IMG/VR virus record: IMGVR_UViG_3300013093_000002
Span: 1 to 63,424 of that record
Length of the DNA stretch: 63,424 nt
Source: a virus
Taxonomy: Duplodnaviria > Caudoviricetes
Reading direction: 5' to 3' (one strand)
Shown here piece after piece: positions 1,838 to 38,200 of the stretch. The notes under the pieces were generated by a model. The model did no database searches. It was not told the DNA's origin and was given only the letters and a program-made list of their open reading frames with translations. Both the position numbers and the translations under genes were made by a program. Position 1 is the stretch's first letter. Each line of letters opens with the position of its first letter.

Positions 1838-2182
1838 CTAAATAGCTTTAGGGTCGAAGTTATAAACCTCTGAGTAAACATCTTTAATACGTAAGAACTT
1901 AGGTCCATGTTCATCAAAGTCTTTATCTCCTCGAACGTAGAGAGCTAAGTGAACCATCTCGTGAAGTAGGGTTTGGAATATAGTTGTAAAGTGTCCGCAT
2001 GAAGCCCTACTAATATGTATTTCCATTTCAATCTCATCAAAACATCCATAAATACCTGGGTTCTTAATCACCACAAATCTAACCTTTGAAGACTTAGGCA
2101 TTTTAAGTTTATTAAAAGGCGGCAATTGACATGCCATATTATAGAGTATCTCTAAGTTCTTTGGAGTGAGCGTTGTTTTCAT
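1838..2182 (-). CDS. SprT-like zinc metalloprotease
   Basis: TLLHEMVH (HEXXH) followed by HGPKF. Confidence 0.8.
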   Translation of the reverse strand: MKTTLTPKNLEILYNMACQLPPFNKLKMPKSSKVRFVVIKNPGIYGCFDEIEMEIHISRASCGHFTTIFQTLLHEMVHLALYVRGDKDFDEHGPKFLRIKDVYSEVYNFDPKAI

Positions 2183-2210
2183 AGGTTTTACTCTTGTGGG
2201 GGATGAATAT

Positions 2211-2303: not shown

Positions 2304-2903
2304 ATGGTAAGTAAAAAGATACAAGAAGTTCCCGAAGACGACGGATTTAATTCAGTAATCATGATGCCTGACATCGATGAGGACGTCCCTTTACCTAAAA
2401 ATGCTTCTGATGCTATGCCCGAACTAAGTGTCGATGAAGAAATTAAAATGCGAGCCAGTACTATAAAGTTAATATCAGATTTAAAAGGTGAGAATATAGA
2501 ACCTGATAAGAACGATATTAGAGAAGCAACTAGGTTAGCACAAGAGATGATAAGTAATCCTGATATAAGACCTGAGTTTGCCCACTACCCAAATGAAACG
2601 ATGGCGTTCCTAGCAGGACTCGTTGCACAAAGTAACTGTATGATTGTGAAAGACTTAGCAGAATTTAAGATGTACGTCGTTAATAATTTAGTCCGCTTGG
2701 CAGAGGGAGCTAAGAATGATAAGGATAAGATTGCTGCGTTAAAAGCGATTGGTGAAGTAGACGGTGTAGATGCGTTTAAACGTAAATCAGAAATTACACA
2801 CATATCTAAATCTATGGAAGAAGTAGAAGACAGTCTATTAAAAACATTAGCAAGTATTGAAGGCAAGATTATAGATGTAGAAGAAGTTGTTGATGAAGAA
2901 TAG
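2304..2903 (+). CDS. Putative terminase small subunit
   Basis: Directly upstream of and overlapping terL; helical 199-aa protein. Function assigned by synteny. Confidence 0.6.
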   Translation: MVSKKIQEVPEDDGFNSVIMMPDIDEDVPLPKNASDAMPELSVDEEIKMRASTIKLISDLKGENIEPDKNDIREATRLAQEMISNPDIRPEFAHYPNETMAFLAGLVAQSNCMIVKDLAEFKMYVVNNLVRLAEGAKNDKDKIAALKAIGEVDGVDAFKRKSEITHISKSMEEVEDSLLKTLASIEGKIIDVEEVVDEE

Positions 2904-9501: not shown

Positions 9502-10500
9502 ATGGCAGAGCAAAAAGATGGAGATATTGTATTTGAGATTCCAGAAGAATTGGAAGATAATCAAGTGCAAATCCAAGACAAAGACGAAGTCGTAAATGTT
9601 AATGTTAAGGAAAAAGCTAAAGAAGTTGATATCGAGATAGAGGATGATACGCCTCCACAAGATAGAAACCGTGAACCTTTACCTAAAGAAATTGTAGATG
9701 AGCTAGAACAAGATGACTTATCAGAATACTCTGAAAGAGTTAGAGAAAGAATGGCTCAACTTAAAAAAGGTTATCACGATGAACGTAGAATTAAAGAAGC
9801 TGCAGAACGTGAAAGAGAAGAAGCTTTACGCTTTGCTCAACAAATAGCAGCTGAGAACAAAAGACTTAAAACTACTTTAAGTTCTGGTGAAGAAACTTAT
9901 ATTAAAACTATAGCTTCTGCACTACAACAACAACTAGAAGTAGCTAAACAAGACTATCGTAATGCTTATAATGCAGGTGAAGCAGATAAGATCATTGAAG
10001 CCCAAACTAAAATGAACGATGCTCAGTTTAGATTGTCTCAGGTTGAAAATTACCAACCTAAGTTTAAAAACACTTTACACGAGGACGATCCTAGTGTATA
10101 TTCACAATCATCACAGCCTCAAGTACAAAAACCAGACCAAAGAGCCTTAAGATGGCAAGATAACAATAAATGGTTTGGATCAGATGAGGAAATGACTAGT
10201 TTAGCTTTGGGGCTGCATGAAAAACTAGTTAGGTCAGGCGTTGACCCTACATCTGATGAATATTACCGTCGTATAGATAGTACGATGCGCAAAAGATTCC
10301 CAGAATACTGGGATGACTCATCGCTGGAACAGGAAACACCTGCCCCGCGCACATCTAAACCTTCAACTGTAGTTGCTCCGGCTACGCGCTCAACCGCGCC
10401 TAAAAAAATCAAGATTACAAAAACTGCTGCTGCTTTAGCACGCAAACTTGGTATTTCGCCTGAACAATATGCTCTTGAAACTTTAAAATTGGAGAATTAA
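9502..10500 (+). CDS. Capsid scaffolding protein
   Basis: Acidic N-terminus, coiled coil, C-terminal ARKLGISPEQYA; position before the capsid genes. Confidence 0.75.
   Translation: MAEQKDGDIVFEIPEELEDNQVQIQDKDEVVNVNVKEKAKEVDIEIEDDTPPQDRNREPLPKEIVDELEQDDLSEYSERVRERMAQLKKGYHDERRIKEAAEREREEALRFAQQIAAENKRLKTTLSSGEETYIKTIASALQQQLEVAKQDYRNAYNAGEADKIIEAQTKMNDAQFRLSQVENYQPKFKNTLHEDDPSVYSQSSQPQVQKPDQRALRWQDNNKWFGSDEEMTSLALGLHEKLVRSGVDPTSDEYYRRIDSTMRKRFPEYWDDSSLEQETPAPRTSKPSTVVAPATRSTAPKKIKITKTAAALARKLGISPEQYALETLKLEN
10074..10102 (+). promoter_or_regulatory. Possible internal promoter for the capsid genes
   Basis: TTTACA-17 nt-TATATT inside the scaffold linker region. Confidence 0.3.
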
Positions 10501-10501
10501 T

Positions 10502-10951
10502 ATGGAAACAACAAGATTAGACCGTGAATTAGACACTCGTAAAGAATTTCAACGAGCAGAACAATGGCAACCTACTGCAACTTTACCAGAACCAAAGAAA
10601 CAACCTGGTTGGGAATACAGATGGATTAGAACAAGCCTACTTAATCAACAAGACTCCATAAACGTCTCCAATAGTATGCGTGAAGGTTGGGAACCTGTAA
10701 AAGCAAGTGACCATCCTGAAATGAAGTTTATACCAGACCCTAATTCAAGATTTAAAGACAGTATTGAAATTGGTGGTTTGTTATTATGTAAGATCCCAGA
10801 AGAGTTTATTGCACAACGTAGAGCTTATTATGACAACATGACTAAGTCTCAAACTCAAGCCGTTGACAATAACTTCTTAAAAGAAAATGATGCTCGTATG
10901 CCTGTATTTTCAGACAAAAAAAGTACGACTTCATTTGGTAAAGGTAAGTAA
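10502..10951 (+). CDS. Conserved head-module protein
   Basis: YRWIR...REGWEPV...GGLLLCKIP motif; GGAG RBS. Confidence 0.8.
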   Translation: METTRLDRELDTRKEFQRAEQWQPTATLPEPKKQPGWEYRWIRTSLLNQQDSINVSNSMREGWEPVKASDHPEMKFIPDPNSRFKDSIEIGGLLLCKIPEEFIAQRRAYYDNMTKSQTQAVDNNFLKENDARMPVFSDKKSTTSFGKGK

Positions 10952-10977
10952 TTTATTAATTATTAAGGAGAAATATT

Positions 10978-11574
10978 ATGGCATCAGTTGCTGCCCCATA
11001 CGGTCTCCGTCCTGTTAACTTAATCGGTGGTCAAGTATTTGCGGGTTCTACTCGTCAAATCGCGATTGCTTCAGGATATGCGACCAACATTTTTTACGGT
11101 GACATCGTAGCTGTTAACAGCTCAGGCGTTGTTGTAAAAGTAACAACATTAGGTACTGCTGCTTCCCAATTCGGAAACGGTGTTATCGGCGTATTTTTAG
11201 GTTGTACTTATACAGATCCTAACTTAAAATACAAAGTAAACAAACAATACTGGCCTACTGGTACAGTTGCATCAGATGCACAAGCATACATTTGTGATGA
11301 TCCAGACACAGTATTCCAAGCACAAGCTAACGGTTCTGTTGCTCAAACAGCTTTAGGTAACAACATTGGTGTTGTACAAACTGCTGGTTCTACAACTACT
11401 GGTGATTCAGCTATCGCTTTAGATACAACAACAATCAATACAACTAGCACTATCGGTTTACGTATTGTTGACTTTGTGAATGGTCCATTTTCATCAGTTG
11501 GTGATGCATACACTGATGTCCTCGTTAAATTTAATTTCGGACAGCATTCATATTACAATGCTACCGGTGTATAA
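10978..11574 (+). CDS. Minor capsid / decoration protein
   Basis: PYGLRP...IFYGD...GVFLGC..DDPD pattern, highly biased codon use, directly before the major capsid gene. Confidence 0.7.
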   Translation: MASVAAPYGLRPVNLIGGQVFAGSTRQIAIASGYATNIFYGDIVAVNSSGVVVKVTTLGTAASQFGNGVIGVFLGCTYTDPNLKYKVNKQYWPTGTVASDAQAYICDDPDTVFQAQANGSVAQTALGNNIGVVQTAGSTTTGDSAIALDTTTINTTSTIGLRIVDFVNGPFSSVGDAYTDVLVKFNFGQHSYYNATGV

Positions 11575-11586
11575 GGAGAATAACAC

Positions 11587-12498
11587 ATGGCTATTTCACG
11601 CGCTCAACTATTAAAAGAATTGCTCCCAGGACTTAACGCGCTATTCGGTCTCGAATATAAACGTTACGGCGAAGAGCACAAAGAAATCTACGAAACTGAA
11701 GCTTCAGAACGTAGCTTTGAAGAAGAAACAAAACTATCAGGTTTCTCAGCAGCACCTGTTAAAAACGAAGGCAATGCTATCGCTTATGACAATGCTCAAG
11801 AAGCTTGGACAGCTCGCTATGTTCACAACACAATCGCTTTAGGCTTCAGCTTAACTGAAGAAGCTATCGAAGATAACTTGTATGACACTTTATCTGCACG
11901 ATACACTAAAGCTCTTGCTCGTGGTATGGCATATTCAAAACAAGTATTTGCAGCTAACGTATTAAACAACGGCTTCAACACTGGCGGTAATTATAACGGT
12001 GGTGATGGTGTTTCATTATTTAATACTGCTCACCCACTTGTTTCTGGCGGTACAAACAGCAACACATCATCAACTTCAGCAGACTTAAATGAAACTTCAC
12101 TTGAGTCAGCAGTTATTCAAATCGCTGCATGGACTGATGAACGTGGTCTTTTGATCGCTGCTAAACCTCGTAAATTAGTTGTTCCACCTAACTTAATGTT
12201 CGTTGCAACTCGCTTGCTCGAAACAGAGTTAAGAGTTGGTACAGCTGATAACGATATCAATGCTATCAAGAATAATGGTTCAATCCCAGAAGGTTACACA
12301 GTTAACCACTTCTTGACAAACAACTTAGCATGGTTCTTAACAACAGATGTGCCTAATGGTCTCAAACACTTTGTTCGTACACCATTAACAACATCTATGG
12401 ATGGCGACTTCGACACAGGTAACGTACGTTACAAAGCTCGTGAACGTTATTCATTCGGTTGGTCAGATCCTCTCGGTATCTACGGTTCACAAGGATAA
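11587..12498 (+). CDS. Major capsid protein (Mu gpT-like family)
   Basis: MAISRAQLLKELLPGLNALFG...GGDGVSLF...HPL...KLVVPP...DFDTGNVRYKARERY; strong RBS; followed by a terminator. Confidence 0.95.
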   Translation: MAISRAQLLKELLPGLNALFGLEYKRYGEEHKEIYETEASERSFEEETKLSGFSAAPVKNEGNAIAYDNAQEAWTARYVHNTIALGFSLTEEAIEDNLYDTLSARYTKALARGMAYSKQVFAANVLNNGFNTGGNYNGGDGVSLFNTAHPLVSGGTNSNTSSTSADLNETSLESAVIQIAAWTDERGLLIAAKPRKLVVPPNLMFVATRLLETELRVGTADNDINAIKNNGSIPEGYTVNHFLTNNLAWFLTTDVPNGLKHFVRTPLTTSMDGDFDTGNVRYKARERYSFGWSDPLGIYGSQG

Positions 12499-12513
12499 TA
12501 TCCTTGTTCTTGG

Positions 12514-12542
12514 AAAACCCAGTTTCGGCTGGGTTTTTCTTT
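12514..12542 (+). terminator. Rho-independent terminator after the capsid gene
   Basis: AAAACCCAGT-TTCG-GCTGGGTTTT followed by a T-rich tail. Confidence 0.9.
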
Positions 12543-12587
12543 ATCTAAACTTAATGATTTTCTCTATCTTATATGTATATAAATGGG

Positions 12588-12649
12588 TATAATATAAACA
12601 TATACACAATAACGTGTATACAAAATAGCAAAATATAAACATATAGGAG
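12588..12649 (+). promoter_or_regulatory. Putative pqqA -10 box and RBS
   Basis: TATAAT at 12588-12593 (no clear -35); AGGAG at 12645-12649, 6 nt before the ATG. Confidence 0.5.
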
Positions 12650-12655
12650 AATATT

Positions 12656-12727
12656 ATGTGGACAACCCCATCAGCAACTGAAATGAGATTTGGTTTTGAA
12701 GTAACTATGTACGTAATGAATAAGTAG
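12656..12727 (+). CDS. pqqA: Pyrroloquinoline quinone precursor peptide PqqA (23 aa, absent from the ORF track)
   Basis: Translates to MWTTPSATEMRFGFEVTMYVMNK: WxxP leader, RFGFE, and the E-x3-Y core (EVTMY) that defines PqqA. Confidence 0.97.
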   Translation: MWTTPSATEMRFGFEVTMYVMNK

Positions 12728-12745
12728 TTAATACGTGCATTTATT

Positions 12746-12768
12746 AGGGGGCCTAGCGCCCCCTTTTT
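12746..12768 (+). terminator. Rho-independent terminator after pqqA
   Basis: AGGGGGC-CTAGC-GCCCCCT followed by TTTT. Confidence 0.88.
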
Positions 12769-12787
12769 ATTATATAATTATCTTATT

Positions 12788-12857
12788 CCGGGAATTCACC
12801 GGTTTATTAGACTGTCCCGGCAGACGCATATAAGACTAATAAGCTTAACTTTATATG
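12788..12857 (+). ncRNA. Candidate pseudoknotted RNA (possibly the Mu-gpT-DE motif)
   Basis: Three interleaved helices: 12788-93 with 12815-20, 12801-10 with 12836-45, 12827-34 with 12850-57. Located downstream of a gpT-like capsid gene. Confidence 0.55.
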
Positions 12858-12870
12858 AAGGAAAATTATC

Positions 12871-13350
12871 ATGGCAAGAACCGTATTCACCGGCCCATTA
12901 AAAGCTGGTACAAATCGTTATCCACAATACCAAAACGTAGGTACTGCAACATTATTTCAAGATGTAGTACTTAATGTAACTTCAGGTTTAACAAGCTCAC
13001 AAACACTATACATTCCAGCAGGTTGTCAAATCTTAGAAATTATCGTTGATACTACAGTTGCATATAATGCAGGTACATCAACAACAGTTACAATAGGTAA
13101 TCTATCAACTGCAGCTCAATATGCAGGTGGCGTATCAGCACAAACTACTGGTCGTGTTTACCCAACATTTACTGCAGCTCAATTAGCTAACTTACAATCT
13201 ACAACATCAGATGTATATGGCCCAACAAATATTGCTAGCTCAGCTATTGTATGTACAGCTACTTCAGTTGGTACACAACCTACAACAGGTCAAGTATACG
13301 TATCAATCTTATACTTACAAAACGATACTAACGCAGTTACATCTAACTAA
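12871..13350 (+). CDS. Putative virion structural protein
   Basis: MARTVFTGPLKAG start, T/S/A-rich beta-type sequence, AAGGA RBS. Confidence 0.7.
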   Translation: MARTVFTGPLKAGTNRYPQYQNVGTATLFQDVVLNVTSGLTSSQTLYIPAGCQILEIIVDTTVAYNAGTSTTVTIGNLSTAAQYAGGVSAQTTGRVYPTFTAAQLANLQSTTSDVYGPTNIASSAIVCTATSVGTQPTTGQVYVSILYLQNDTNAVTSN

Positions 13351-13357
13351 TTAGTCT

Positions 13358-13380
13358 AGGGGACTTCGGTCCCCTTTCTT
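13358..13380 (+). terminator. Rho-independent terminator
   Basis: AGGGGAC-TTCG-GTCCCCT followed by TTCTT. Confidence 0.85.
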
Positions 13381-13399
13381 AAACACAAGGAGATTAATT

Positions 13400-13909
13400 A
13401 TGACAATGCAATATGATGTAAAAAGCTCGCATGCTTCAGGCTCAGGCCAAATGGTATTAGGTAGAGCACGTTTAAAAAACTTAATTTATTTAGGTACAGG
13501 CACTGCAGGTAGTATTGATTTATATGATACTACGACTGCTCCTGTAACAACATCTACATATGCTAGATCAGGTAATACAGTTACAGTAACTTCTACAGCT
13601 CATGGCTTAACTACAGGTCAAGTTATTGGTATTACTTATGGTGTAGCTTCAGGTAATTCTGCAGTTGCAGGTAATTATCCAGTTACAGTTACAGGCGCTA
13701 ATACATTTACTATTACAGATATTGGTTCAGGTACTATTGCAGGCGGAACTGCATGTGCTTATACAACAGGTAAATGGTTAACAAGCTATAATACAGGTAC
13801 AAACGTAACCCCTTTCCAAGTTATTTTTGCAGGTGAAGGTGTATTAGCTTTAAACGGTATCTGGGTAGTAGTATCTAATATTAACTATCAAACAATTCAG
13901 TACGGTTAG
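13400..13909 (+). CDS. Putative virion protein with an inserted beta-rich domain
   Basis: MQYDVK start; VTVTSTAHGLTTGQ...YPVTVTGANTFTIT insert, which resembles a segment of the 28237 protein. Confidence 0.7.
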   Translation: MTMQYDVKSSHASGSGQMVLGRARLKNLIYLGTGTAGSIDLYDTTTAPVTTSTYARSGNTVTVTSTAHGLTTGQVIGITYGVASGNSAVAGNYPVTVTGANTFTITDIGSGTIAGGTACAYTTGKWLTSYNTGTNVTPFQVIFAGEGVLALNGIWVVVSNINYQTIQYG

Positions 13910-13917
13910 GAATAAAA

Positions 13918-14109
13918 ATGCTACATAATATGGATCAACATACAAAAACAGCAGTAGATATAGCGTCAACAGTAACCGTTTTAGGAACAGTCATGAACCT
14001 TTTACCAGCAATTGCAGCTTTATGGACTATTATATGGACTACAATTCGTATTTATGAGACAAAAACAGTGCAAGATTTGTTAAAAAAATTAAAAAAACAT
14101 GGCAACTAA
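13918..14109 (+). CDS. Small membrane protein (holin-like?)
   Basis: Hydrophobic segment LPAIAALWTIIWTTIRIYET with a basic tail. Confidence 0.6.
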   Translation: MLHNMDQHTKTAVDIASTVTVLGTVMNLLPAIAALWTIIWTTIRIYETKTVQDLLKKLKKHGN

Positions 14110-14368
14110 GAGTAAAAAAGCTGGAGTTTCATTAGCTGTAGGTCGTGGTGAGAAATTACCAGTATCAAAAGGTGCTGGACTTACTGCAAAAGGTCGTGCA
14201 AAGTATAATAAAGCGACTGGATCACACTTAAAAGCTCCTCAACCACAAGGTGGACCGCGTAAAAAGTCATTTTGTGCAAGAATGAGTGGTATGCCAGGCC
14301 CTATGAAAGATGAAAAAGGCCGTCCTACTCGAAAAGCTGCATCACTAAAACGTTGGAACTGTAAATAA
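14099..14368 (+). CDS. Small basic phage protein (DUF6321-like)
   Basis: GLTAKGRAKYN...LKAP...RKKSFCARMSG...RWNC. Confidence 0.7.
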   Translation: MATKSKKAGVSLAVGRGEKLPVSKGAGLTAKGRAKYNKATGSHLKAPQPQGGPRKKSFCARMSGMPGPMKDEKGRPTRKAASLKRWNCK

Positions 14369-14377
14369 AGGGTAAAT

Positions 14378-15010
14378 ATGCCAAGTGTATCTAAAAAACA
14401 ACATAATTTTATGGCTGCAATAGCTAAAAACCCTGGGTTTGCTAAAAAAGTTGGTATTAAACAGAGCGTTGGTGAGGAATTTCTCCAAGCTGACAAAGGT
14501 AAACATTTTAAAGAAGGTGGATATATGAAAAAAATTAAACTTAAAGAAACAATGGGTCCTAGAACTATGTCAGAAGACATAGAAAAAGGTTCTAATAAAC
14601 TACGTAAATTTGGCGAAGCTAAAGTACAAAAAAGAGAAGCAACAAAAGGTAGAAATCTTGGTGATACAGGTGCTACAGTTGCTGATATGCGTGGCGGTAT
14701 GAAAAAAGGCGGTAAAGTTAAAAAATATGCTGCAGGTGGTTCAATTGAAAAAACTAAAGCTGGTAAATCAACACCATCATATAAAGAAATGGGTTCAATG
14801 AATATGAAAAAAGGTGGCGAAGTAGAAACTAAATCAGAAGCTATGAAAGAAGAAAAAGAAATTAAGTCTATTAAAAAAGAACTTAAACATCACGAACACA
14901 TGAAAGCTGGTAAAGCACATCATGGTTTAAAACACGGTGGCAAAGTTAAGAAATATGCACGTGGTGGTGGCATTGAATCTAAAGGTAAAACTAAAGGACG
15001 TTTCTGCTAA
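14378..15010 (+). CDS. Lys-rich protein with repeated (M/Y/F/L)xxGG motifs
   Basis: FKEGG, MKKGG twice, YAAGG, LKHGG, YARGG; ends in GIESKGKTKGRFC. Confidence 0.75.
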   Translation: MPSVSKKQHNFMAAIAKNPGFAKKVGIKQSVGEEFLQADKGKHFKEGGYMKKIKLKETMGPRTMSEDIEKGSNKLRKFGEAKVQKREATKGRNLGDTGATVADMRGGMKKGGKVKKYAAGGSIEKTKAGKSTPSYKEMGSMNMKKGGEVETKSEAMKEEKEIKSIKKELKHHEHMKAGKAHHGLKHGGKVKKYARGGGIESKGKTKGRFC

Positions 15011-15012
15011 TC

Positions 15013-15318
15013 ATGGAAGCAATTAAAAAACTTACGGCTAAAATGGTAGAGGAAGCAGTTAAAAAAAGAAATCAACCAATGGGTAAACCTCCTAAAGGTG
15101 GAATGCCTTTTGAAGATGATATGGGTCCTTTGCCTGTTAAAACTGCTCCAGCTCCAACACCTAATCCAGCACCAGCTCCTGCAGTTGCTCCTGCTATGAA
15201 AAAAGGTGGTAAAGTAAAAGCTAAAGCTAAACCTAAAGCTAAAAAAATGGCTTCAGGCGGTAAAGTACGTGGCTGTGGCTGTGAATCAAAAGGTAAAACA
15301 AAAGGTAGATTTATTTAA
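15013..15318 (+). CDS. Lys/Pro-rich small protein with xxGG motifs
   Basis: PAPA linker, MKKGG, MASGG; ends in GCESKGKTKGRFI. Confidence 0.75.
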   Translation: MEAIKKLTAKMVEEAVKKRNQPMGKPPKGGMPFEDDMGPLPVKTAPAPTPNPAPAPAVAPAMKKGGKVKAKAKPKAKKMASGGKVRGCGCESKGKTKGRFI

Positions 15319-15328
15319 GGAGAAGTAT

Positions 15329-15526
15329 ATGAAAGAAATGGAACATAAAGAACCAAATATGGTACATGAACATAAACATCACGTTCACCACATGGAAAAA
15401 CATGAAGTGGATGGTCACGTACATCATCATAAACATTATTCTAAACATGCAGCTGGCCATATGGTACATCATGAACACGTTAAAAAAATGTGTGGTGGCG
15501 GTTACATGGGTAAGAAAGGTAAATAA
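15329..15526 (+). CDS. Histidine-rich small protein (65 aa, 18 His)
   Basis: AAGGAG RBS before ATG 15329; MKEMEHKEPNMVHEHKHHVHH...MCGGGYMGKKGK. Confidence 0.75.
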   Translation: MKEMEHKEPNMVHEHKHHVHHMEKHEVDGHVHHHKHYSKHAAGHMVHHEHVKKMCGGGYMGKKGK

Positions 15527-23615: not shown

Positions 23616-24386
23616 ATGGCAAATTTAATTACAGGTGTAACCTCAGGTACTGGTGGCTTATCAACCACTGCTGATAATTCAGGGCAAATAGCTTTACAAA
23701 CTAATAATGGTACTACAGCATTAACATTAGATAACTCACAAAACGCTACCTTTGCTGCTAACATCTCAACCCCAACTGGTACAGTAACAGCATCTAGCTT
23801 TATTGGTAACGGTGCATCATTAACTGGTATTGCTGGTGGTTTTTCTAACATGACAGTATTTACCTCTCCAGGAACTTTCACAACTCCATCTAGTACAACT
23901 AAAATTAAAGTGACTGTTGTGGGTGGTGGTGGAGGTTCAGGCGGAAATACTAATCCATCAGTAGGTGGAACTGGTGGAACTTCATCATTTAGCACATTAG
24001 CTTCAGCAACAGGTGGTAGTGGGGGTAATCCTAGTGTTGGACAAGCTTCTGGTAATGGTGGAGCAGGAACAGCAGGTACATTACAAATAAAAGGAAGTGC
24101 AGGCGGTATTGCTTCAAACTATGCTCCTGGCGAAACTGCATCTATTGGAGGACCTTCTTATTTAGGTGGTGGTGGTTCAGGAAATACTCCAGGAGCAGGC
24201 GGTAATTATGGAGGTGGAGCTGGCAGTCCTTATGCTGCTGGTAGTGGAGGTGGAGGCGGTGCAGCTATTTATGTTGGACCTGTAACTGCTTCAACACCTT
24301 ATGCGGTGACAGTTGGCTCTAGTGGAACTGCTGGAAATCCAACTGCTTTTGCTGGTGGAATTGGTGTTGTAATCGTAGAATACTAA
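23616..24386 (+). CDS. Glycine-rich fibre/receptor-binding protein, paralog 1
   Basis: FTSPGTFTTP...KVTVVGGGGG...GVVIVEY glycine-rich domain. Confidence 0.75.
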   Translation: MANLITGVTSGTGGLSTTADNSGQIALQTNNGTTALTLDNSQNATFAANISTPTGTVTASSFIGNGASLTGIAGGFSNMTVFTSPGTFTTPSSTTKIKVTVVGGGGGSGGNTNPSVGGTGGTSSFSTLASATGGSGGNPSVGQASGNGGAGTAGTLQIKGSAGGIASNYAPGETASIGGPSYLGGGGSGNTPGAGGNYGGGAGSPYAAGSGGGGGAAIYVGPVTASTPYAVTVGSSGTAGNPTAFAGGIGVVIVEY

Positions 24387-24404
24387 TTAAAGGAATTATA
24401 GAAT

Positions 24405-25166
24405 ATGTCAAACATTCAAATAGCAGGCGATACCTCTGGATCAGTAACATTACAAGCTCCCGCTACGGCAGGGTCTACCACACTTACTTTACCTGCAACA
24501 TCAGGCACAGTATTAACAAGTGCAAGTTCAATTGCTACATCACAATTAGGTACAGGACCAGCTACATCATCTACTTATTTAAGAGGTGATTCTACATGGG
24601 CTACAGCAGGAGGCGGTCAAATACAAACACAATTATTTACTTCGCCTGGTACATTTACTACACCTTCATCTGTTACTCAAGTAAGAGTGACTGTAATTGG
24701 TGGTGGTGGTGGTGGTATATATGCCTCTACTGCTCCAGGTGATGGAGGCTATGGAGGTTTAGCATCTGCAATTTGTCCTGTAACAGCAGGAGTTCCTATA
24801 TCTGTTACTATAGGTTCTGGAGGTACTGGAGGTAATGGTGCTGGAGGACAAACATCAGGTGCAACTTCTTCTTTTGGTTCATTAGTTTCTGCTACTGGGG
24901 GAGGTACTTCTGGAGGTGCTGGTAGTGCAGGATCACCAGGATCAGGAACAGTAACAACAGGAACAGCAATTAAAACAGGTAATATGTCACCAGGAAATTT
25001 TAGTCAAATACAAGGAAGTAATAAAAATCCTACAGGACCTGCAGCTGTATCATATTCAACATCTATTGCATATATTGCTGGTGGTAGCGGTGCTTACAGC
25101 ACCGTTCCCTATGCTTTTGGCGGAGGTGGTATAGGTGGAGCTGTTGTAGTAGAATTTGTAGGTTAA
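24405..25166 (+). CDS. Glycine-rich fibre/receptor-binding protein, paralog 2
   Basis: GDTSGSVTLQAP..AG..TLTLP N-terminus; FTSPGTFTTP...GAVVVEF. Confidence 0.75.
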   Translation: MSNIQIAGDTSGSVTLQAPATAGSTTLTLPATSGTVLTSASSIATSQLGTGPATSSTYLRGDSTWATAGGGQIQTQLFTSPGTFTTPSSVTQVRVTVIGGGGGGIYASTAPGDGGYGGLASAICPVTAGVPISVTIGSGGTGGNGAGGQTSGATSSFGSLVSATGGGTSGGAGSAGSPGSGTVTTGTAIKTGNMSPGNFSQIQGSNKNPTGPAAVSYSTSIAYIAGGSGAYSTVPYAFGGGGIGGAVVVEFVG

Positions 25167-25195
25167 TATTTAATTTAACAGAAAGGAAATAAAAC

Positions 25196-25480
25196 ATGGC
25201 AAATAACGCATTAGTAAGTCCTAACGAACCAAGAGAATCTGGTTATCGTGTGGCTCAGGTAGAACCTGATGGTCAAACATTTGAGGTAGGTGCTCCATTA
25301 GAGTGGATTCCTTGCCCAGATAACATTGTAGCAGATCAATTCTGGTATGACCCAGTAGCAAAAGCATTCAACGCAATGCCGGAACCTACTCCTGTACCAG
25401 CACCTGCTACACCAACAGCAGCAGAACTTGCAGCTCAGTTAGCAGCACTACAAGCTCAAATCGCAGCTTTACCTAAATAA
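25196..25480 (+). CDS. Putative fibre assembly chaperone
   Basis: Small acidic protein between fibre genes, ending in an LAAQLAALQAQI coil. Confidence 0.55.
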   Translation: MANNALVSPNEPRESGYRVAQVEPDGQTFEVGAPLEWIPCPDNIVADQFWYDPVAKAFNAMPEPTPVPAPATPTAAELAAQLAALQAQIAALPK

Positions 25481-25492
25481 TAGGAGTATAAA

Positions 25493-26287
25493 ATGTCTTT
25501 AACACTTGACGGTACCCTTGGGGAAACCTTACCTACCTGGACTACGGCAACACGCCCAGCATCCCCAACAACTGGTTTAACTGGTTACAACACTACACTT
25601 AACATTAGGGAAGTGTGGAATGGTTCTGCATGGACTGCGGATAGCTTACCAGCCGCAGGTACTTCAGGTAATGTATTAAAGTCTGATGGTACTAATTGGA
25701 CTTCAGGTGCGGCAGCAGCAGGTGGGTTCTCTAACATGACAGTATTCACTTCACCCGGTACTTTTACAACCCCTGCTACAACCACACAAATTAAAGTGAC
25801 TGTTGTGGGTGGCGGTGGTAGTGGTGGATCAGGGTCTTTGCCATCAGGTAATGCCGGTGACGGAGGCGGCGGCGGTGGCGGCGCTATTTATGTAGGTCCA
25901 GTAAGTGCTTCGACTCCTTATGCGGTAACTGTGGGAACTGCTGGTAATACCTCTTCTTTTGGTGCTTTAGCATCTGCTACTGGCGGCTCTGGTGGAGGAT
26001 CAGGAGGTCCATCTCTTCCCTCAAATGGTGCTGGTGGAGCAGGGGGAGCTGGTTCTGCTGGAACATTACAATTTGCTGGTGGAGGAGGAAATGGTGGAGG
26101 TACCAGTACTAGTGCTTTCGGAGGCGCAGGTGGAAGTTCATTATTTGGTGGTGGTGCTGCATCTATTAATGGAGGTGGTGCTGGAAATGCAGGTAGAGCT
26201 TATGGCGGCGGCGGTGGCGGTGGAGGTGCTGTAGGACCTGGTAGTGGTGGTTCAGGTGCTGCAGGTGTAGTAGTCGTAGAATACTAA
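25493..26287 (+). CDS. Glycine-rich fibre/receptor-binding protein, paralog 3
   Basis: WTTATRPASP..G..GYNTT; GGFSNMTVFTSPGTFTTP shared with paralog 1. Confidence 0.75.
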   Translation: MSLTLDGTLGETLPTWTTATRPASPTTGLTGYNTTLNIREVWNGSAWTADSLPAAGTSGNVLKSDGTNWTSGAAAAGGFSNMTVFTSPGTFTTPATTTQIKVTVVGGGGSGGSGSLPSGNAGDGGGGGGGAIYVGPVSASTPYAVTVGTAGNTSSFGALASATGGSGGGSGGPSLPSNGAGGAGGAGSAGTLQFAGGGGNGGGTSTSAFGGAGGSSLFGGGAASINGGGAGNAGRAYGGGGGGGGAVGPGSGGSGAAGVVVVEY

Positions 26288-35249: not shown

Positions 35250-38200
35250 ATGCCTAAAATAAACGTACAGGGTTATGGACCTGTAAACTTTCCGGACGAT
35301 ATGTCCCAAGAACAGATTGCTAATGTAATCGAAAACGAATATATCCCACATATGAAACAGCATATCGCTAAGGAAGGTTTTATTCCTGGCGTTAAAGCTG
35401 GTTTACAATCAGGGTTAGGTAATGTAGAAACATTCTTAGGTGAGAATCTAGGTATGCCTTCATTATCTGAAGCTGGTAAACAAAATAAAGCAGAAGCTGC
35501 TACTAAGTATGAAGAACCTTATGCTGGTGAAACTGCCGCTGCATTTCAACGTGGTATTTTACCTGGTGTTGGCACTGCTATATCAAATGTAACAGGTCCT
35601 GTTGGTAATATCTTAGGTACATTTGGTCCTACTGCATTAACAGGTGTTGCTGCTGCTCCTTTACTTCCTGAAGAACTTGCTGGTCTAACTCTAAGCACAG
35701 CTACTCGACGTGCAATTGGTACTACTGTAGCTAACGGGTTTGAAGAAGCTGGTCAAAATATTGATAAACAAAAAGATTTACATCCCGATCAAAAAGTAAA
35801 CTTACTCGCTGCTGATTTAACAGGTCTTATTCAAGGTGCTATTGATACTATTGGTGTGCCTGGACTAGGTAAATTAAGTAATAAATTAGCTCCTCAATTA
35901 GAAAACCAAGCTACTAAATTATCTAAACAAATCGTAGATGGTGAAATAACACACGCAGAAGCTGCTAAAAGCTTATCAAGTAAATGGACTGAATATCTAG
36001 GTTCTACTGCGTCTAACTTTGCTTCAGGTGCTGGTATGATGACTGCAGACGAAGCATTACGTCGTGCACAAGCTGGCGAAGATGTAACAAGTCCTGAAGC
36101 CTTAGAATCTTATAAACATGATATTGGTAGCGCATTATTAATGTCACCTGTATTTGGTGCATATCACGTTCTTACAGGTAGTGGTCGTGGTGAAGCTAAT
36201 AGAAAACTAGATGAAGCCCAAGCTACTAAAACTGCAAAAGACCAAGCTATTGCTGATGCTCAAGCTAAACGTGAGATGGATATTAAAACTGGGGTTATGC
36301 AACAACAACCTATGTTTACTGAAGAGCAAGCACCAAGTCCAGCAGGTCCACCAGCCCCAGAAGCACAAGGTCCATCAACGCTTACACAAGCAGAACCCGA
36401 TCAAATAAATAAAGTTGAGCAATTACAAAAACAACAAGAAGCTGAAGCTGCGGGTCAACAATCTTTATTTGATGAAAAAGGTAAACCTACTCCTGAAATA
36501 GAACAAGAGCAAGCTAAGAGTCGTGTTCAACAAAATCAAGAAAAAGTTAATACATTGTTAGCTACGCCAGAAGGCACTAAGCAAGTAATTGATAATATCA
36601 AGGATTATTTCTTTGACTATACAAAAGCTGACCAAAACAAAATTAGAACTCAGTTACAACAACGCATGAAAGCGTTTACTTTAAAAGACGAAGATGTGCT
36701 AAGTCAAAAACAAAAAGAATATGAACAACTATTCTCTGTTATCGAGCCTGTACCTGAACACGAATTAACTTCACAAAAATTACAAGAAGCAGGCATCAAA
36801 GGTTCTCTTGCAGCGCAATTAAAAGATAAGAGTTTGAAAGACCCGGCGGTATATAATAAAGTTGCAGATGTAGCTAATGATTTAAAAAATACAAATGCAT
36901 CTGCAGCAGCTAAACTATTAGATGGTATTCAAGCACCAGAAGGAGTAAAAAATGTTAAAAGAACTAAGTCCGCAACAGCTGGAGAAAGCGATGCAGTATC
37001 TCTCAAATCCGAAGATGAAACTGACACCGGAACTAGCAGAGATATCAAATCTACAATGGGTTTCAATCGAGTTGATAATGGTAGAGCTCTTGAAGGAGCA
37101 AAAGATGTCAACGCTGCATTAAAAGAAGCTAAGATATATGAAACTAAAGATGAAAGCGGTCAAGAGTATTTAGGTCTTGGTGAGAAGAAAGAAGAAGTAG
37201 CTAAAGAAGAAAAAGCTGCTAAGACTCCTGAAGAAATTAAACAAGCAGAGCTTGATCGTAAAGCCTTATTAGAAAGAGAACAAAAACTATCTAAGAAACT
37301 TCATAAAGCTGGTGAAGAAGCTTCTGATATCTACGCTTCACAAAAAGAAGGTGAAGAAAATAAAAACCTAGATTTATCTACTACAACTCCTGCAGAATTA
37401 ACTGAAGGTTCAACATTCCAAAGAAAATTCAAGAATGCAAAAACACTAGGTGATGCATTAAAAACTCTCAAGAAGATGCCTATTAGTAAAGGTCAACAAG
37501 CCCTTGCTAATTTATTACTCAATACCAAAAATATTTCAGACGTAGCATTTGAAACAGCTAAACATCCACAACCTAAAGATATACGCAAAAAAGGTCCTAA
37601 GACTTACATCGGAGAATTTACTGGTGAAAAGCGTACTATGGGAGAAGAAGCCTCTAAAAAACTAATCAACTATGAGAAGTTTACAGGTGAATATGACTCT
37701 TCCGAAAATAAAGCTAGACTTTATCAATCAGGTAATGCTGAGAGTTTATTACATGAAGGCATTCACGCCGCTACTGCACACGAAATAGATAAACATATTG
37801 ACCATGTACCTGACCCAAGAGGTGCTGCATACGGTGTAACTCCAGTTGCAAAACCTAACTCAGTTATAGGTAAACGTTGGGTAAGAATGTTTAACGCCGC
37901 AAAAGAAGCAGCTAAGAATAGAAATGAAGATTACTATGGTCTAGATGACATACATGAATTCGTAGCAGAAGCTCTTAACCCACATGATAATAAATTTAGA
38001 CAACTATTAAAGAATACAGCACCTACTTCAAAAGCTAAACCAAGAGGTAGACTACCATCACTATTTACTGAATTTATTCAGAACATAATGGACTTATTAG
38101 GTGTTCCACAAAAATATGAAAGTCTATTCCACGAAATATTAGATCATAGTTCTGAACTATTCAAAGGTCCTGATCTATCAATAGATAAAGATGTAGCTAA

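What the first reader, a model, noticed from the sequence alone, without database searches (positions are those of the whole stretch)
12514..12768. Phage-borne pqqA cassette: a PQQ cofactor precursor peptide inserted behind the major capsid gene
Seen: a 23-codon ORF (12656-12727, MWTTPSATEMRFGFEVTMYVMNK), too short for the ORF track, with an AGGAG RBS, an upstream TATAAT and its own terminator. The capsid terminator insulates it upstream, so it is a self-contained moron. No pqqB-E genes are visible in the genome. Established: PqqA is the ribosomal precursor whose Glu and Tyr (E-x3-Y) are cross-linked by PqqE/PqqD. One peptide is consumed per PQQ, and PQQ is the cofactor of MxaF/XoxF methanol dehydrogenases. 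The sequence closely resembles Methylophilaceae PqqA as I recall it. Inference: the host is a low-GC methylotroph (Methylopumilus/OM43-like), and the phage supplies only the stoichiometric substrate of the pathway to sustain methanol oxidation during infection. Phage pqqA may already appear in metagenomic surveys, so novelty needs a literature check.
Basis: partly seen in the sequence, partly recalled or inferred. Interest (0 to 1): 0.92.

Follow-up and report, generated by a model that had tools for sequence, protein, structure and literature searches.

The report
Phage copy of PQQ precursor gene
A complete 63-kb lake phage carries, right behind its capsid gene, an intact 23-codon copy of pqqA, the small peptide that methanol-eating Methylophilaceae bacteria use up to make the cofactor PQQ; viral pqqA has been published once before and is widespread, but many phage copies also carry a DNA motif found in front of the hosts' own PQQ genes.

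Summary
ORF 12656-12727(+) encodes a 23-residue peptide that scores about twice the curated cut-off on both PqqA models. It has an AGGAG ribosome-binding site, a TATAAT box and a hairpin terminator on each side. The window is a complete phage genome in which pqqB, pqqC, pqqD, pqqE and tyrosine-integrase models found nothing.

The peptide core is the Methylophilaceae type: 97 of 120 bacterial loci carrying it rank in that family. The same gene lies unannotated in the nine cultured Methylophilales/Methylophilaceae phage records that tblastn returned and in at least 120 IMG/VR contigs. All 127 viral copies are intact, and dN/dS on unforced codons is 0.16, as in bacteria.

In this capsid lineage the cassette marks a low-GC sublineage.

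New here: a 17-bp palindrome precedes host pqqA, pqqB and a PqqU-like receptor gene. Phage cassettes carry it at a fixed 38-nt spacing from the -10 box. The window's own site is weak (3 mismatches).

Viral pqqA was published in 2020 (Lake Baikal virome), and this scan has noted it on other DNA many times. Expression is not shown. Verdict: a new member of a known kind.

The parts
11587..12498 (+). Major capsid gene (303 aa, Mu gpT-like). This is context: the cassette sits directly behind it.
   Evidence: PF10124 gives 39.9 bits against a cut-off of 20.1. At least 600 IMG/VR relatives exist, and the best 80 are 82-88% identical.
12512..12539 (+). Capsid terminator hairpin (12 pairs, 4-base loop, T-rich tail). 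It marks the left boundary of the insertion slot.
   Evidence: Found by the terminator scan. Fold energy is -16.8 kcal/mol, z -4.5. An equivalent hairpin follows the capsid gene in all 12 relatives inspected, with or without pqqA.
12551..12567 (+). Degenerate copy of the Methylophilaceae PQQ-gene palindrome (pattern YTMATGRTTTTMMTKAG). The left half-site is intact and there are 3 mismatches in the right half. It starts 37 nt before the -10 box.
   Evidence: On its own it is weak, since 28 of 366 random 200-nt windows reach 3 mismatches or fewer. Its spacing of 37 lies next to the phage-typical peak of 38, and the closest relative L085 has a 1-mismatch site at spacing 39.
12588..12593 (+). TATAAT -10 box of the cassette. 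There is no recognisable -35 hexamer.
   Evidence: Sequence read. It is not listed by the two-hexamer promoter scan. GTATAAT is positionally conserved at a median of -56 from the ATG in 33 of 123 viral copies.
12601..12620 (+). Leader hairpin with a 7-bp stem (12601-12607 pairs with 12614-12620) and a 6-base loop. It starts about where a transcript from the -10 box would start.
   Evidence: Energy is -6.4 kcal/mol, z -6.2 against mononucleotide shuffles. Leader regions fold better than shuffles (z < -1.5) in 49 of 116 viral and 49 of 117 bacterial copies.
12645..12649 (+). Shine-Dalgarno sequence AGGAG, six bases before the ATG.
   Evidence: Sequence read. An SD-like word lies 4-17 nt upstream in 116 of 121 viral and 119 of 123 bacterial copies.
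12656..12727 (+). pqqA: 23 codons plus stop. The Glu-x3-Tyr pair is at residues 15 and 19.
12746..12764 (+). The cassette's own terminator hairpin (7 pairs, 6 of them G-C, then a T run).
12773..12870 (+). Context, not part of the cassette: a TATAAT box at 12773-12778 and the conserved structured leader of the next virion gene (12871-13350). Both are present in relatives with and without pqqA.
   Evidence: RNA contigs of three runs begin at 12797-12800.

Best explanation
This is a genuine host-derived pqqA gene carried as an autonomous promoter-to-terminator cassette (a moron) in the slot behind the capsid terminator. The carrier is a lytic-type, roughly 63-kb freshwater phage that most likely infects a low-GC Methylophilaceae bacterium (Ca. 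Methylopumilus/LD28-like).

Shown:
- The peptide is a PqqA of the Methylophilaceae type.
- The four pqqB-E models found nothing in the phage genome.
- Viral copies are numerous, intact and under the same purifying selection as host copies.
- In this capsid lineage the cassette marks one low-GC sublineage.
- Stand-alone, multi-copy pqqA is the host family's own arrangement.
- Host PQQ genes share a 17-bp palindrome, and many phage cassettes carry it at a fixed distance from their -10 box.

Inferred:
- In an infected cell, host RNA polymerase transcribes a short mRNA of about 170 nt with a hairpin at each end. This probably happens under whatever host factor binds the palindrome, not under the phage's own timing.
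- Host PqqD/PqqE and PqqB/PqqC then convert the peptide into PQQ, one peptide consumed per cofactor.
- This keeps PQQ-dependent methanol dehydrogenase, and so energy supply, going while host transcription declines.
For: Identity: PF08042 scores 41.3 bits against a 21.1 cut-off, and the TIGR02107 equivalog scores 38.5 against 20.

Phage status: the record is complete with direct terminal repeats. It has terminase, Mu gpT-like capsid, lysozyme, DNA polymerase A and SNF2 helicase matches. PF00589 (tyrosine integrase) found nothing.

Host type: the core is held by at least 120 bacterial stretches, 97 of 120 ranked in Methylophilaceae. All 20 holder runs are freshwater or lake samples. The window's GC is 0.33-0.46 in 2-kb steps, mostly about 0.36.

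Not an artefact: a DNA run reads through both junctions, with contigs 12289-12705 and 12676-15397. In 15 IMG/VR loci that carry a window-like capsid, pqqA lies downstream of it on the same strand.

Selection: 127 of 127 viral copies are intact (121 are 23 codons; 6 have one or two extra N-terminal residues). W2, P5 and N22 lie outside the searched pattern and are invariant despite synonymous change. dN/dS on codons 2-8 and 21-23 is 0.162 in viruses against 0.164 in bacteria, with pS about 0.5.

Lineage: on the capsid tree 14 of 16 carriers cluster together (SH-aLRT 84) with GC 0.36-0.43. The tree needs 3 changes against 14.8 in shuffles, and 0 of 500 shuffles were as low.

Host architecture: Ca. 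Methylopumilus universalis (1.3 Mb) has 3 pqqA copies, all more than 100 kb from pqqBCDE. Eleven family genomes have 3-9 copies each.

Shared cis-element:
- All 5 sites in Methylopumilus with 1 mismatch or fewer precede pqqA (3 sites), pqqB, or a PqqU-like receptor gene.
- 33 of 57 sites in 11 genomes lie 92-175 nt upstream of such genes, which make up about 0.1% of the sequence.
- A site with 2 mismatches or fewer lies upstream of 90 of 115 bacterial and 61 of 122 viral copies. The reversed pattern gives 0 and 0, and random viral windows give 8 of 366.
- The spacing from site to -10 box peaks at 38 nt in phages (19 of 52) and at 61 nt in hosts (36 of 58).

Precedent: the Lake Baikal virome reports a viral PqqA in viruses assigned to Methylophilaceae hosts.
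Against: - Expression and function are not shown (see Tried and rejected for the RNA runs).
- PQQ is a stable, reusable cofactor, so it is not obvious that new synthesis is limiting within one infection.
- The host is inferred from the peptide type, GC and habitat. There is no CRISPR, tRNA or prophage link. The one 'bacterial' assembly that holds a related phage contig (G002) showed no pqqC or pqqE match.
- The window's own palindrome copy is weak at 3 mismatches, a level reached by 28 of 366 random windows. Regulation by a host factor is therefore a population-level inference and may not hold for this phage.
- The selection estimate rests on 10 codons and on related sequences, and the viral and bacterial sets were both collected with a pattern that fixed codons 9-20.
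- Carriers and non-carriers on the capsid tree came from different searches, and L045 and L248 are the same contig.
Confidence: 0.75

Rival explanations
1. Regulatory decoy. The selected part is mainly the operator-bearing promoter. As the phage genome replicates, many copies of the palindrome would titrate the host's PQQ regulator and switch the whole host regulon (pqqA copies, pqqBCDE, PqqU-like receptor). The peptide would be a secondary benefit.
For: The palindrome marks several PQQ transcription units in hosts and is enriched at fixed geometry in phage cassettes.
Against: The ORF itself is under strong purifying selection and intact in 127 of 127 viral copies, which a pure decoy would not need. 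Only 61 of 122 viral copies have a site with 2 mismatches or fewer, and the window's site has 3. Whether the bound factor is a repressor or an activator is unknown.
Confidence: 0.07
2. Receptor shielding. The phage boosts PQQ output so that PQQ-bound PqqU-like outer-membrane receptors close. This would block superinfection by phages that use that receptor.
For: In E. coli, PqqU is a phage receptor and PQQ blocks infection by a PqqU-targeting phage (PMC12124388, passages read). Methylophilaceae have a PqqU-like receptor gene, found in 7 of 11 genomes, and in 2 of those 7 it is preceded by the same palindrome.
Against: Nothing indicates that these phages use that receptor. The receptor scores 480-625 bits, well under the 1200-bit cut-off of the PqqU model. 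The idea is transferred from an E. coli system.
Confidence: 0.05
3. Passenger or artefact: a neutral, recently captured piece of host DNA, or a chimeric join made by the assembler.
For: The gene is tiny, lies in an insertion hotspot where relatives carry other cargo, and no RNA contig covers it.
Against: The same arrangement appears in 15 independent IMG/VR loci, and a DNA run reads through both junctions. Synonymous sites are near saturation among viral copies while the peptide is conserved. The best bacterial DNA match is only 91.7% over 72 nt, and flanks are unalignable between most carriers. Only 1 of 120 viral loci (L040) shares a neighbouring gene with a true bacterial pqqA locus; the other 17 viral loci that matched did so only through L219, itself a phage-like contig.
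Confidence: 0.03
4. Integration homology. The pqqA copy would serve as an attP-like stretch for recombination into a host pqqA locus.
For: Hosts have several dispersed pqqA copies that could serve as targets.
Against: PF00589 (tyrosine integrase) found no match in the complete genome. Serine recombinases were not searched. The phage copy is a whole gene with its own ribosome-binding site, promoter box and terminator. Its DNA identity to host copies is at most 91.7%, with differences spread over third codon positions and no identical core.
Confidence: 0.02

Closest known systems
Virus-encoded PqqA of Lake Baikal viruses assigned to Methylophilaceae hosts (population VP_266; Coutinho et al. 2020, Microbiome 8:163, PMC7678222; passages read)
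   Same: A viral copy of the PQQ precursor peptide gene, without the rest of the pathway on the same contig. The authors interpret it as an auxiliary metabolic gene supporting methanol oxidation in Methylophilaceae hosts.
   Different: Those are T4-like viruses that also encode a methanol dehydrogenase. This window is a roughly 63-kb phage with a Mu gpT-like capsid related to Pelagibacter phage HTVC023P (65.8% DNA identity over the capsid gene). Here pqqA is the only PQQ-pathway gene that the models found. The passages I read do not describe a cassette structure or a shared promoter element.
Stand-alone ('orphan') pqqA copies of Methylophilaceae chromosomes
   Same: Same 23-residue peptide type (the commonest bacterial form differs from the window's at one residue), same SD spacing, a leader hairpin, the same upstream palindrome, and the same separation from pqqBCDE.
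   Different: In hosts the palindrome starts 61 nt before the -10 box and is followed by a further half-site. In phages it starts 38 nt before the -10 box, giving a shorter, compacted promoter.
Unannotated pqqA ORFs in cultured methylophages (P19250A, Venkman, MEP301, MEP401, MEP402, four Melnitz records) and Caudoviricetes sp. MW202481
   Same: Intact PqqA ORFs with the same core, 72.7-95.7% identical to the window's peptide. They are unannotated, or overlapped by an opposite-strand call.
   Different: They occur in different phage types and different genome positions: next to recombination genes, at a genome end, or between tRNA genes. Only this window's lineage places the gene behind the capsid gene.
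Cyanophage psbA, and phage 'morons' in general (both recalled from general knowledge; no call here)
   Same: The logic is shared. The phage carries only the fastest-consumed component of a host energy pathway, packaged as an autonomous promoter-gene-terminator unit inserted between two genes that are adjacent in relatives.
   Different: The product here is a 23-residue cofactor precursor that is destroyed in use, not a protein subunit. Expression during infection has not been shown for pqqA.

Membership tests
PqqA (PF08042 / TIGR02107) | Scores above the curated cut-off of the family models | tested here: met
   41.3 bits against 21.1, and 38.5 bits against 20. The six-frame search of the genome gives 39.1 bits.
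PqqA (PF08042 / TIGR02107) | Conserved Glu and Tyr separated by three residues (the pair cross-linked to form PQQ), in a peptide of about 20-40 residues | tested here: met
   Glu15 and Tyr19 sit in a 23-residue peptide. The role of the pair is established knowledge, also summarised in the references quoted.
PqqA (PF08042 / TIGR02107) | Processing enzymes PqqB, PqqC, PqqD and PqqE available in the same cell | tested here: inconclusive
   The four models found nothing in the phage. All four are present in the candidate host family: 11 of 11 genomes have pqqB, and pqqB, pqqC, pqqD and pqqE were identified in Ca. Methylopumilus. The actual host is not identified.
PqqA (PF08042 / TIGR02107) | The peptide is converted to PQQ | not testable with these tools
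   This needs complementation or in-vitro PqqD/PqqE assays.
Auxiliary metabolic gene of a phage | A host-type metabolic gene inside a bona fide, complete phage genome, not host contamination | tested here: met
   The record has direct terminal repeats and is rated 100% complete. Phage genes lie on both sides. Only 1 of 120 viral carrier loci (L040) shares a neighbour with a true bacterial pqqA locus; the other 17 that matched did so only through the phage-like contig L219.
Auxiliary metabolic gene of a phage | Maintained by purifying selection in phages | tested here: met
   127 of 127 copies are intact, and dN/dS is 0.162 on 10 unforced codons. Caveat: the sequence is short and the copies are related.
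Auxiliary metabolic gene of a phage | Expressed during infection | tested here: inconclusive
   Metatranscriptome contigs of three runs cover the flanking genes but not the cassette.
Moron (autonomous insertion cassette) | Absent between the same two genes in close relatives, with its own terminator and promoter | tested here: met
   2 of the 80 best capsid relatives carry it, and of the loci that entered the capsid tree 65 with at least 600 nt of room lack it. Flanking hairpins are shown. The -10 box is read from the sequence, and promoter activity is inferred.
attP / integration module | An integrase in the genome and an identical core shared with a host site | tested here: not met
   PF00589 found no match. 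The best host DNA identity is 91.7%, with differences scattered. Serine recombinases were not searched.
Methylophilaceae PQQ-gene promoter palindrome (defined here; not a named family) | A 17-nt site matching YTMATGRTTTTMMTKAG at fixed spacing from a -10 box, upstream of the gene | tested here: inconclusive
   The window's site has 3 mismatches and a spacing of 37 nt, against the phage mode of 38. Its closest relative L085 has 1 mismatch. 28 of 366 random windows reach 3 mismatches or fewer.

The most novel reading that the evidence does not exclude
Phage pqqA cassettes are not just a copied gene. They are plug-ins to a host PQQ regulon that has not been described in the papers I could search. 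The 17-bp palindrome that precedes host pqqA copies, pqqBCDE and a PqqU-like PQQ receptor gene has been kept by unrelated phage lineages and moved to a position centred about 42 nt upstream of the presumed transcript start. A host regulator would then decide when the phage gene fires, and replicating phage genomes might in turn titrate that regulator and re-set the host's whole PQQ economy of synthesis, export and uptake.
Probability: 0.3. Interest if true: 0.7.

Novelty: new member of a known kind. Interest (0 to 1): 0.5.

Why it matters
Methylophilaceae (OM43 in the sea, LD28/Ca. Methylopumilus in lakes) are major consumers of methanol and other one-carbon compounds, and all of that oxidation depends on PQQ. 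The tblastn search returned nine cultured phage records of this family and all nine carry pqqA. At least 120 uncultured viral contigs carry it too. A tiny gene with that distribution is likely to matter for these phages.

Three practical points follow:
- Gene callers miss the gene, and it is unannotated in all 10 GenBank records it hit with E ≤ 4e-4 (7 loci inspected; the rest from the hit table), so viral roles in one-carbon cycling are undercounted.
- The Methylophilaceae-type core works as a simple host-prediction marker for viral contigs.
- The shared promoter palindrome gives a concrete, testable handle on how PQQ synthesis is regulated in these streamlined bacteria, and on whether a phage gene obeys a host regulator.

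For this window alone the result is ordinary: it is one more well-preserved example of a kind already published.

Tried and rejected
I used degenerate DNA patterns and tblastn instead. The large protein libraries, structure prediction and complex prediction were not used, because the peptide is under their length limits.

2. RNA evidence. In three lake metatranscriptome runs (X5, X7, X9; three study codes, possibly one campaign) contigs cover 10089-12489 and 12797-13512 but nothing between 12490 and 12796, which holds the cassette. The DNA run X1 reads through that gap. Bin depths are fully explained by the listed contigs in X5 and X7. A transcript of about 170 nt is also easily lost in standard libraries. 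Expression therefore remains open. As a weak hint only, the stops at about 12484-12489 and the starts at 12797-12800, with no loose ends listed there, fit a capsid transcript ending near its terminator and a new transcript starting after the TATAAT at 12773-12778.

3. Rfam: no family reached its gathering score anywhere in the window. The permissive scan of 12480-12900 gave only sub-threshold matches to the terminator hairpin.

4. Host link through L219. A phage contig of this lineage sits in an assembly labelled 'Gammaproteobacteria bacterium' (G002), but no pqqC or pqqE match was found there. I rejected it as host evidence.

5. Co-occurring ORFs. The window ORFs that recur near pqqA in other phages are SprT-like, cell-wall hydrolase and lysozyme genes. 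These are ordinary phage genes and do not form a pathway.

6. My first regex for PqqA found nothing, not even the window's own copy, and was replaced.

7. My simple terminator test found a hairpin plus T-rich tail within 70 nt downstream in only 38 of 125 viral and 46 of 118 bacterial copies. This is a crude detector and I draw nothing from it.

8. Literature. Searches found only the Lake Baikal paper for viral pqqA. The main texts of the MEP401/402, MEP301 and Venkman papers hold no 'pqq' or 'pyrroloquinoline'. The Melnitz paper mentions PQQ only as a medium supplement. Supplements are closed and the P19250A paper did not appear in the library search, so an annotation there cannot be excluded.

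9. No sigma-70 -35 element was found for the cassette.
Full report
WHAT IS THERE. The window is a whole virus record: 63,424 bases, direct terminal repeats, rated 100% complete, with no tRNA genes. On the + strand at 12656-12727 lies a 23-codon ORF encoding MWTTPSATEMRFGFEVTMYVMNK. It is preceded by AGGAG at 12645-12649 and TATAAT at 12588-12593. A 12-pair hairpin at 12512-12539 follows the capsid stop codon (12498), and a G+C-rich 7-pair hairpin with a T run at 12746-12764 follows the ORF. The peptide scores 41.3 bits on Pfam PqqA (cut-off 21.1) and 38.5 bits on the NCBIfam equivalog TIGR02107 (cut-off 20). The only correction is that the two-hexamer promoter scan lists no + strand promoter here, because the -10 box has no -35 partner.

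THE PHAGE. The upstream gene (11587-12498) is a Mu gpT-like major capsid protein. Its DNA is 65-70% identical to the capsid genes of Pelagibacter phages HTVC023P and HTVC027P and related records. Other matches are a large terminase, a lysozyme, a cell-wall hydrolase, an SprT-like protein, DNA polymerase A, an SNF2 helicase, a DUF927 protein and a 2OG-Fe(II) oxygenase. None of the ten large ORFs scanned matched an RNA polymerase family; five of the ten matched nothing, or nothing above a family cut-off, including the 1907-residue one. PF00589 (tyrosine integrase) found nothing. Models for pqqB, pqqC, pqqD and pqqE found nothing at E <= 1. The PqqC model was later shown to work on a host genome.

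WHOSE GENE IS IT. Of those 120 loci, 97 rank in Methylophilaceae, 20 have no family rank (labels such as Methylophilales, Nitrosomonadales, Betaproteobacteria) and 3 carry other labels, all MAGs. The best bacterial DNA match to the 72-nt gene is 91.7%, and flanks do not align, so this is not a recent capture. All 20 sequencing runs that hold the locus are freshwater or lake samples. Together with a GC of about 0.36, that points to a lake Methylophilaceae such as Ca. Methylopumilus rather than marine OM43. This is inference, and no direct host link was found. The one phage contig of this lineage inside a 'bacterial' assembly (L219/G002) sits in a genome where no pqqC or pqqE match was found.

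HOW COMMON IN PHAGES. tblastn of the peptide against 50,697 GenBank phage records hit 12:
- P19250A, Venkman, MEP301, MEP401, MEP402 and four Melnitz records. These are the nine Methylophilales/Methylophilaceae phage records the search returned.
- One uncultured Caudoviricetes record.
- Two weak hits (E 0.2) in Acinetobacter phage contigs.

I cannot list the collection by host, so 'all cultured methylophages' would rest on my recollection that these are the known isolates. In the seven loci I inspected the ORF is unannotated or overlapped by an opposite-strand call. The main texts of three isolate papers never mention PQQ, and a fourth mentions it only as a medium supplement. Viral PqqA is nevertheless in print. 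The Lake Baikal virome paper reports it for a T4-like population assigned to Methylophilaceae hosts, beside a viral methanol dehydrogenase (passages read). It was the only paper holding pqqA, viral and Methylophilaceae together. This scan has also noted phage pqqA on other DNA many times: 268 notes in at least 185 genomes, including the same behind-the-capsid arrangement in another genome.

SELECTION. All 127 viral copies (the window, 6 GenBank loci and 120 IMG/VR loci) are intact. Of these, 121 are 23 codons in register and 6 have one or two extra residues after the Met. Codons 9-20 were fixed by my search pattern and say nothing about amino-acid conservation. Outside them, W2, P5 and N22 are invariant while using 1, 3 and 2 codons respectively. 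The variable positions (4, 6, 21) are the same in viruses and bacteria. Nei-Gojobori dN/dS on codons 2-8 and 21-23 is 0.162 for 108 distinct viral sequences and 0.164 for 111 bacterial ones, with pS about 0.5. This is a rough estimate on 10 codons of related sequences, but constraint on the viral copies looks the same as on host copies.

THE INSERTION. At least 600 IMG/VR contigs encode a relative of this capsid. Of the 80 best (82-88% identical), only L039 and L248 carry pqqA, 139-155 nt after the capsid stop; the others show no PqqA-like ORF in the fetched locus. Of the capsid relatives that entered the tree, 65 have at least 600 nt of room downstream and lack it. In the relatives inspected, the capsid terminator is followed by a promoter-like stretch and a conserved leader of the next virion gene. 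Some carry a GIY-YIG-like ORF in the same slot, so this is an insertion hotspot.

Conversely, 17 of the 120 pqqA-bearing IMG/VR loci include a window-like capsid, and in 15 of them pqqA lies downstream on the same strand. On a quick maximum-likelihood capsid tree (94 rows, LG+G4) 14 of 16 carriers fall in one cluster with a single non-carrier. Support is SH-aLRT 84, which is weak. Carrier GC is 0.36-0.43, while non-carriers are mostly 0.43-0.61. The label needs 3 changes against 14.8 in shuffles, and 0 of 500 shuffles were as low. Caveats: carriers and non-carriers came from different searches, L045 and L248 are the same contig, and 13 rows were undetermined. A DNA run reads through both junctions of the cassette. 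A chimera or contamination is therefore very unlikely. Only 1 of 120 viral loci (L040) shares a neighbour with a true bacterial pqqA locus, and the other 17 that matched did so only through L219, itself a phage-like contig.

HOST ARCHITECTURE AND A SHARED PROMOTER ELEMENT. Ca. Methylopumilus universalis (1.3 Mb) has three pqqA copies at 0.416, 0.457 and 1.186 Mb, far from pqqB-C-D-E at 0.576-0.580 Mb. Eleven Methylophilaceae genomes have 3-9 copies each. Stand-alone pqqA is therefore the native arrangement, and the phage cassette copies it.

Comparing upstream regions, I found a positionally conserved word about 90 nt before viral pqqA and about 125 nt before bacterial pqqA. It resolves into a 17-bp palindrome, pattern YTMATGRTTTTMMTKAG.
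- In Ca. Methylopumilus all five sites with 1 mismatch or fewer precede a PQQ-related unit: the three pqqA genes, pqqB (followed by pqqC, pqqD, pqqE and an MFS transporter), and a TonB-dependent receptor. The receptor's best family is PqqU at 487 bits, under the 1200-bit cut-off, with the next family at 140 bits.
- In 11 family genomes (27.3 Mb) there are 57 sites against 17 for the reversed pattern. Of the 57, 33 lie 92-175 nt upstream of pqqA (30), pqqB (1) or the PqqU-like gene (2), although such positions make up about 0.1% of the sequence. 30 of 53 pqqA copies have one.
- Within 200 nt upstream of pqqA, a site with 2 mismatches or fewer occurs in 90 of 115 bacterial and 61 of 122 viral copies. 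The reversed pattern gives 0 and 0, and random windows of the same viral loci give 8 of 366.
- The geometry is discrete. Site start to -10 start peaks at 61 nt in hosts (36 of 58 with a -10 call) and at 38 nt in phages (19 of 52, plus 3 at 39).

With a -10 box at -12 to -7, the phage site would be centred near -42. That is the classical position of an activator site overlapping a missing -35 element, or of a repressor site; this reading of the position comes from general knowledge, not from a call. Among cultured phages the site has 1 mismatch in P19250A and Melnitz, 2 in Venkman and MEP301, and 4-5 in MEP402 and MEP401. The window's own site (12551-12567) has an intact left half and 3 mismatches in the right half, with spacing 37. 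Its closest relative L085 (capsid 98% identical) has 1 mismatch and spacing 39. For this window the element is suggestive only. At population level it is solid. I found no paper describing it; one search returned one irrelevant hit. The PqqU paper notes pqq-operon/pqqU synteny in four Burkholderiales genomes and suggests co-regulation there.

OTHER CASSETTE PARTS. A 7-bp hairpin at 12601-12620 begins about where a transcript from the -10 box would begin (z -6.2 against mononucleotide shuffles). Leaders fold better than shuffles (z < -1.5) in 49 of 116 viral and 49 of 117 bacterial copies. With the terminator at 12746-12764, the predicted mRNA is about 170 nt with a hairpin at each end. I read that as a design for stability; this is inference from general knowledge of 5' hairpins.

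EXPRESSION. Ten of the 20 holder runs are metatranscriptomes. In three of them, contigs cover the capsid block and the next gene but not 12490-12796. The patchy cover, compared with the even DNA run, suggests that the RNA libraries reflect transcription and that this phage is active in lakes. It leaves pqqA expression open, as detailed in Tried and rejected.

MECHANISM AND RIVALS. Best reading (0.75): a selected auxiliary gene that supplies the one component of PQQ synthesis that is consumed stoichiometrically, expressed from a host-type promoter, to keep methanol oxidation running during infection. Shown: identity, phage origin, selection, lineage distribution and the shared cis-element. Inferred: transcription, processing by host enzymes and benefit. 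Rivals are an operator decoy (0.07), PQQ-mediated shielding of a PqqU-like receptor by analogy with E. coli (0.05), a passenger or artefact (0.03) and an attP-like role (0.02). Each is listed with its evidence in the Rival explanations section.

VERDICT. It is a new member of a kind published in 2020 and found repeatedly by this scan.
- The insertion's history within an abundant capsid lineage.
- The match to the host's own orphan-gene architecture.
- A candidate PQQ-regulon palindrome shared by hosts and phage cassettes with lineage-specific geometry.

Interest is 0.5. The most novel reading, host-regulator control and possible titration, has probability about 0.3.

Noticed in passing
window 12781-12873 (+); also L248:5209-5301, L254:4971-5063, L257:1018-1110, L259:1058-1150, L264:4995-5087, L279:4968-5060, L317:4967-5059: A conserved, apparently structured leader lies in front of the virion gene that follows the capsid/pqqA locus, in relatives with and without pqqA. 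RNAalifold on 8 sequences predicts a 10-pair helix, and 9 of the 12 predicted pairs keep pairing through changes on both sides. A second helix (CCGGG/CCCGG type) also covaries by eye. No Rfam family matched.
   Followed up: partly
Ca. Methylopumilus universalis genome G001: C1:416024, 457622, 576377, 580838, 1186145; locus L328: A 17-bp palindrome (YTMATGRTTTTMMTKAG) precedes the three orphan pqqA genes, pqqBCDE plus an MFS transporter, and a PqqU-like TonB-dependent receptor gene. This makes it a candidate PQQ-regulon operator across Methylophilaceae: 33 of 57 sites in 11 genomes lie upstream of PQQ genes. The binding protein is unknown.
   Followed up: yes
L256, L261, L266, L277 (about 90-200 nt after the capsid stop): Some capsid relatives carry an ORF with a GIY-YIG-like N-terminus (read by eye, no family search) in exactly the slot where this window has pqqA. 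The position behind the capsid terminator is therefore an insertion hotspot.
   Followed up: no
window 24405-26287 (+): Two neighbouring ORFs (253 and 264 aa) match the glycine-rich domain PF21722 just above its cut-off. They coincide with the only GC bump of the genome, 0.455 in the 24001-26000 window.
   Followed up: no
window 35250-40973 (+): A 1907-residue ORF has no Pfam match at E <= 0.001. It is the largest gene of the phage and its function is unassigned.
   Followed up: no
L327 (Melnitz MZ577097.1) 2498-2569 (+); L006 (MW202481.1) 2119-2190 (+): In both GenBank records a 'hypothetical protein' is annotated on the strand opposite to an intact PqqA ORF. These are probably miscalls that hide the real gene.
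   Followed up: partly
L219 (contig 455 of assembly G002, labelled Gammaproteobacteria bacterium): A contig of this phage lineage (capsid 92% identical to that of L045, with pqqA behind it) sits inside a bacterial genome assembly where no pqqC or pqqE match was found. It looks like a binned or co-cultured phage and not a prophage of a PQQ producer.
   Followed up: partly
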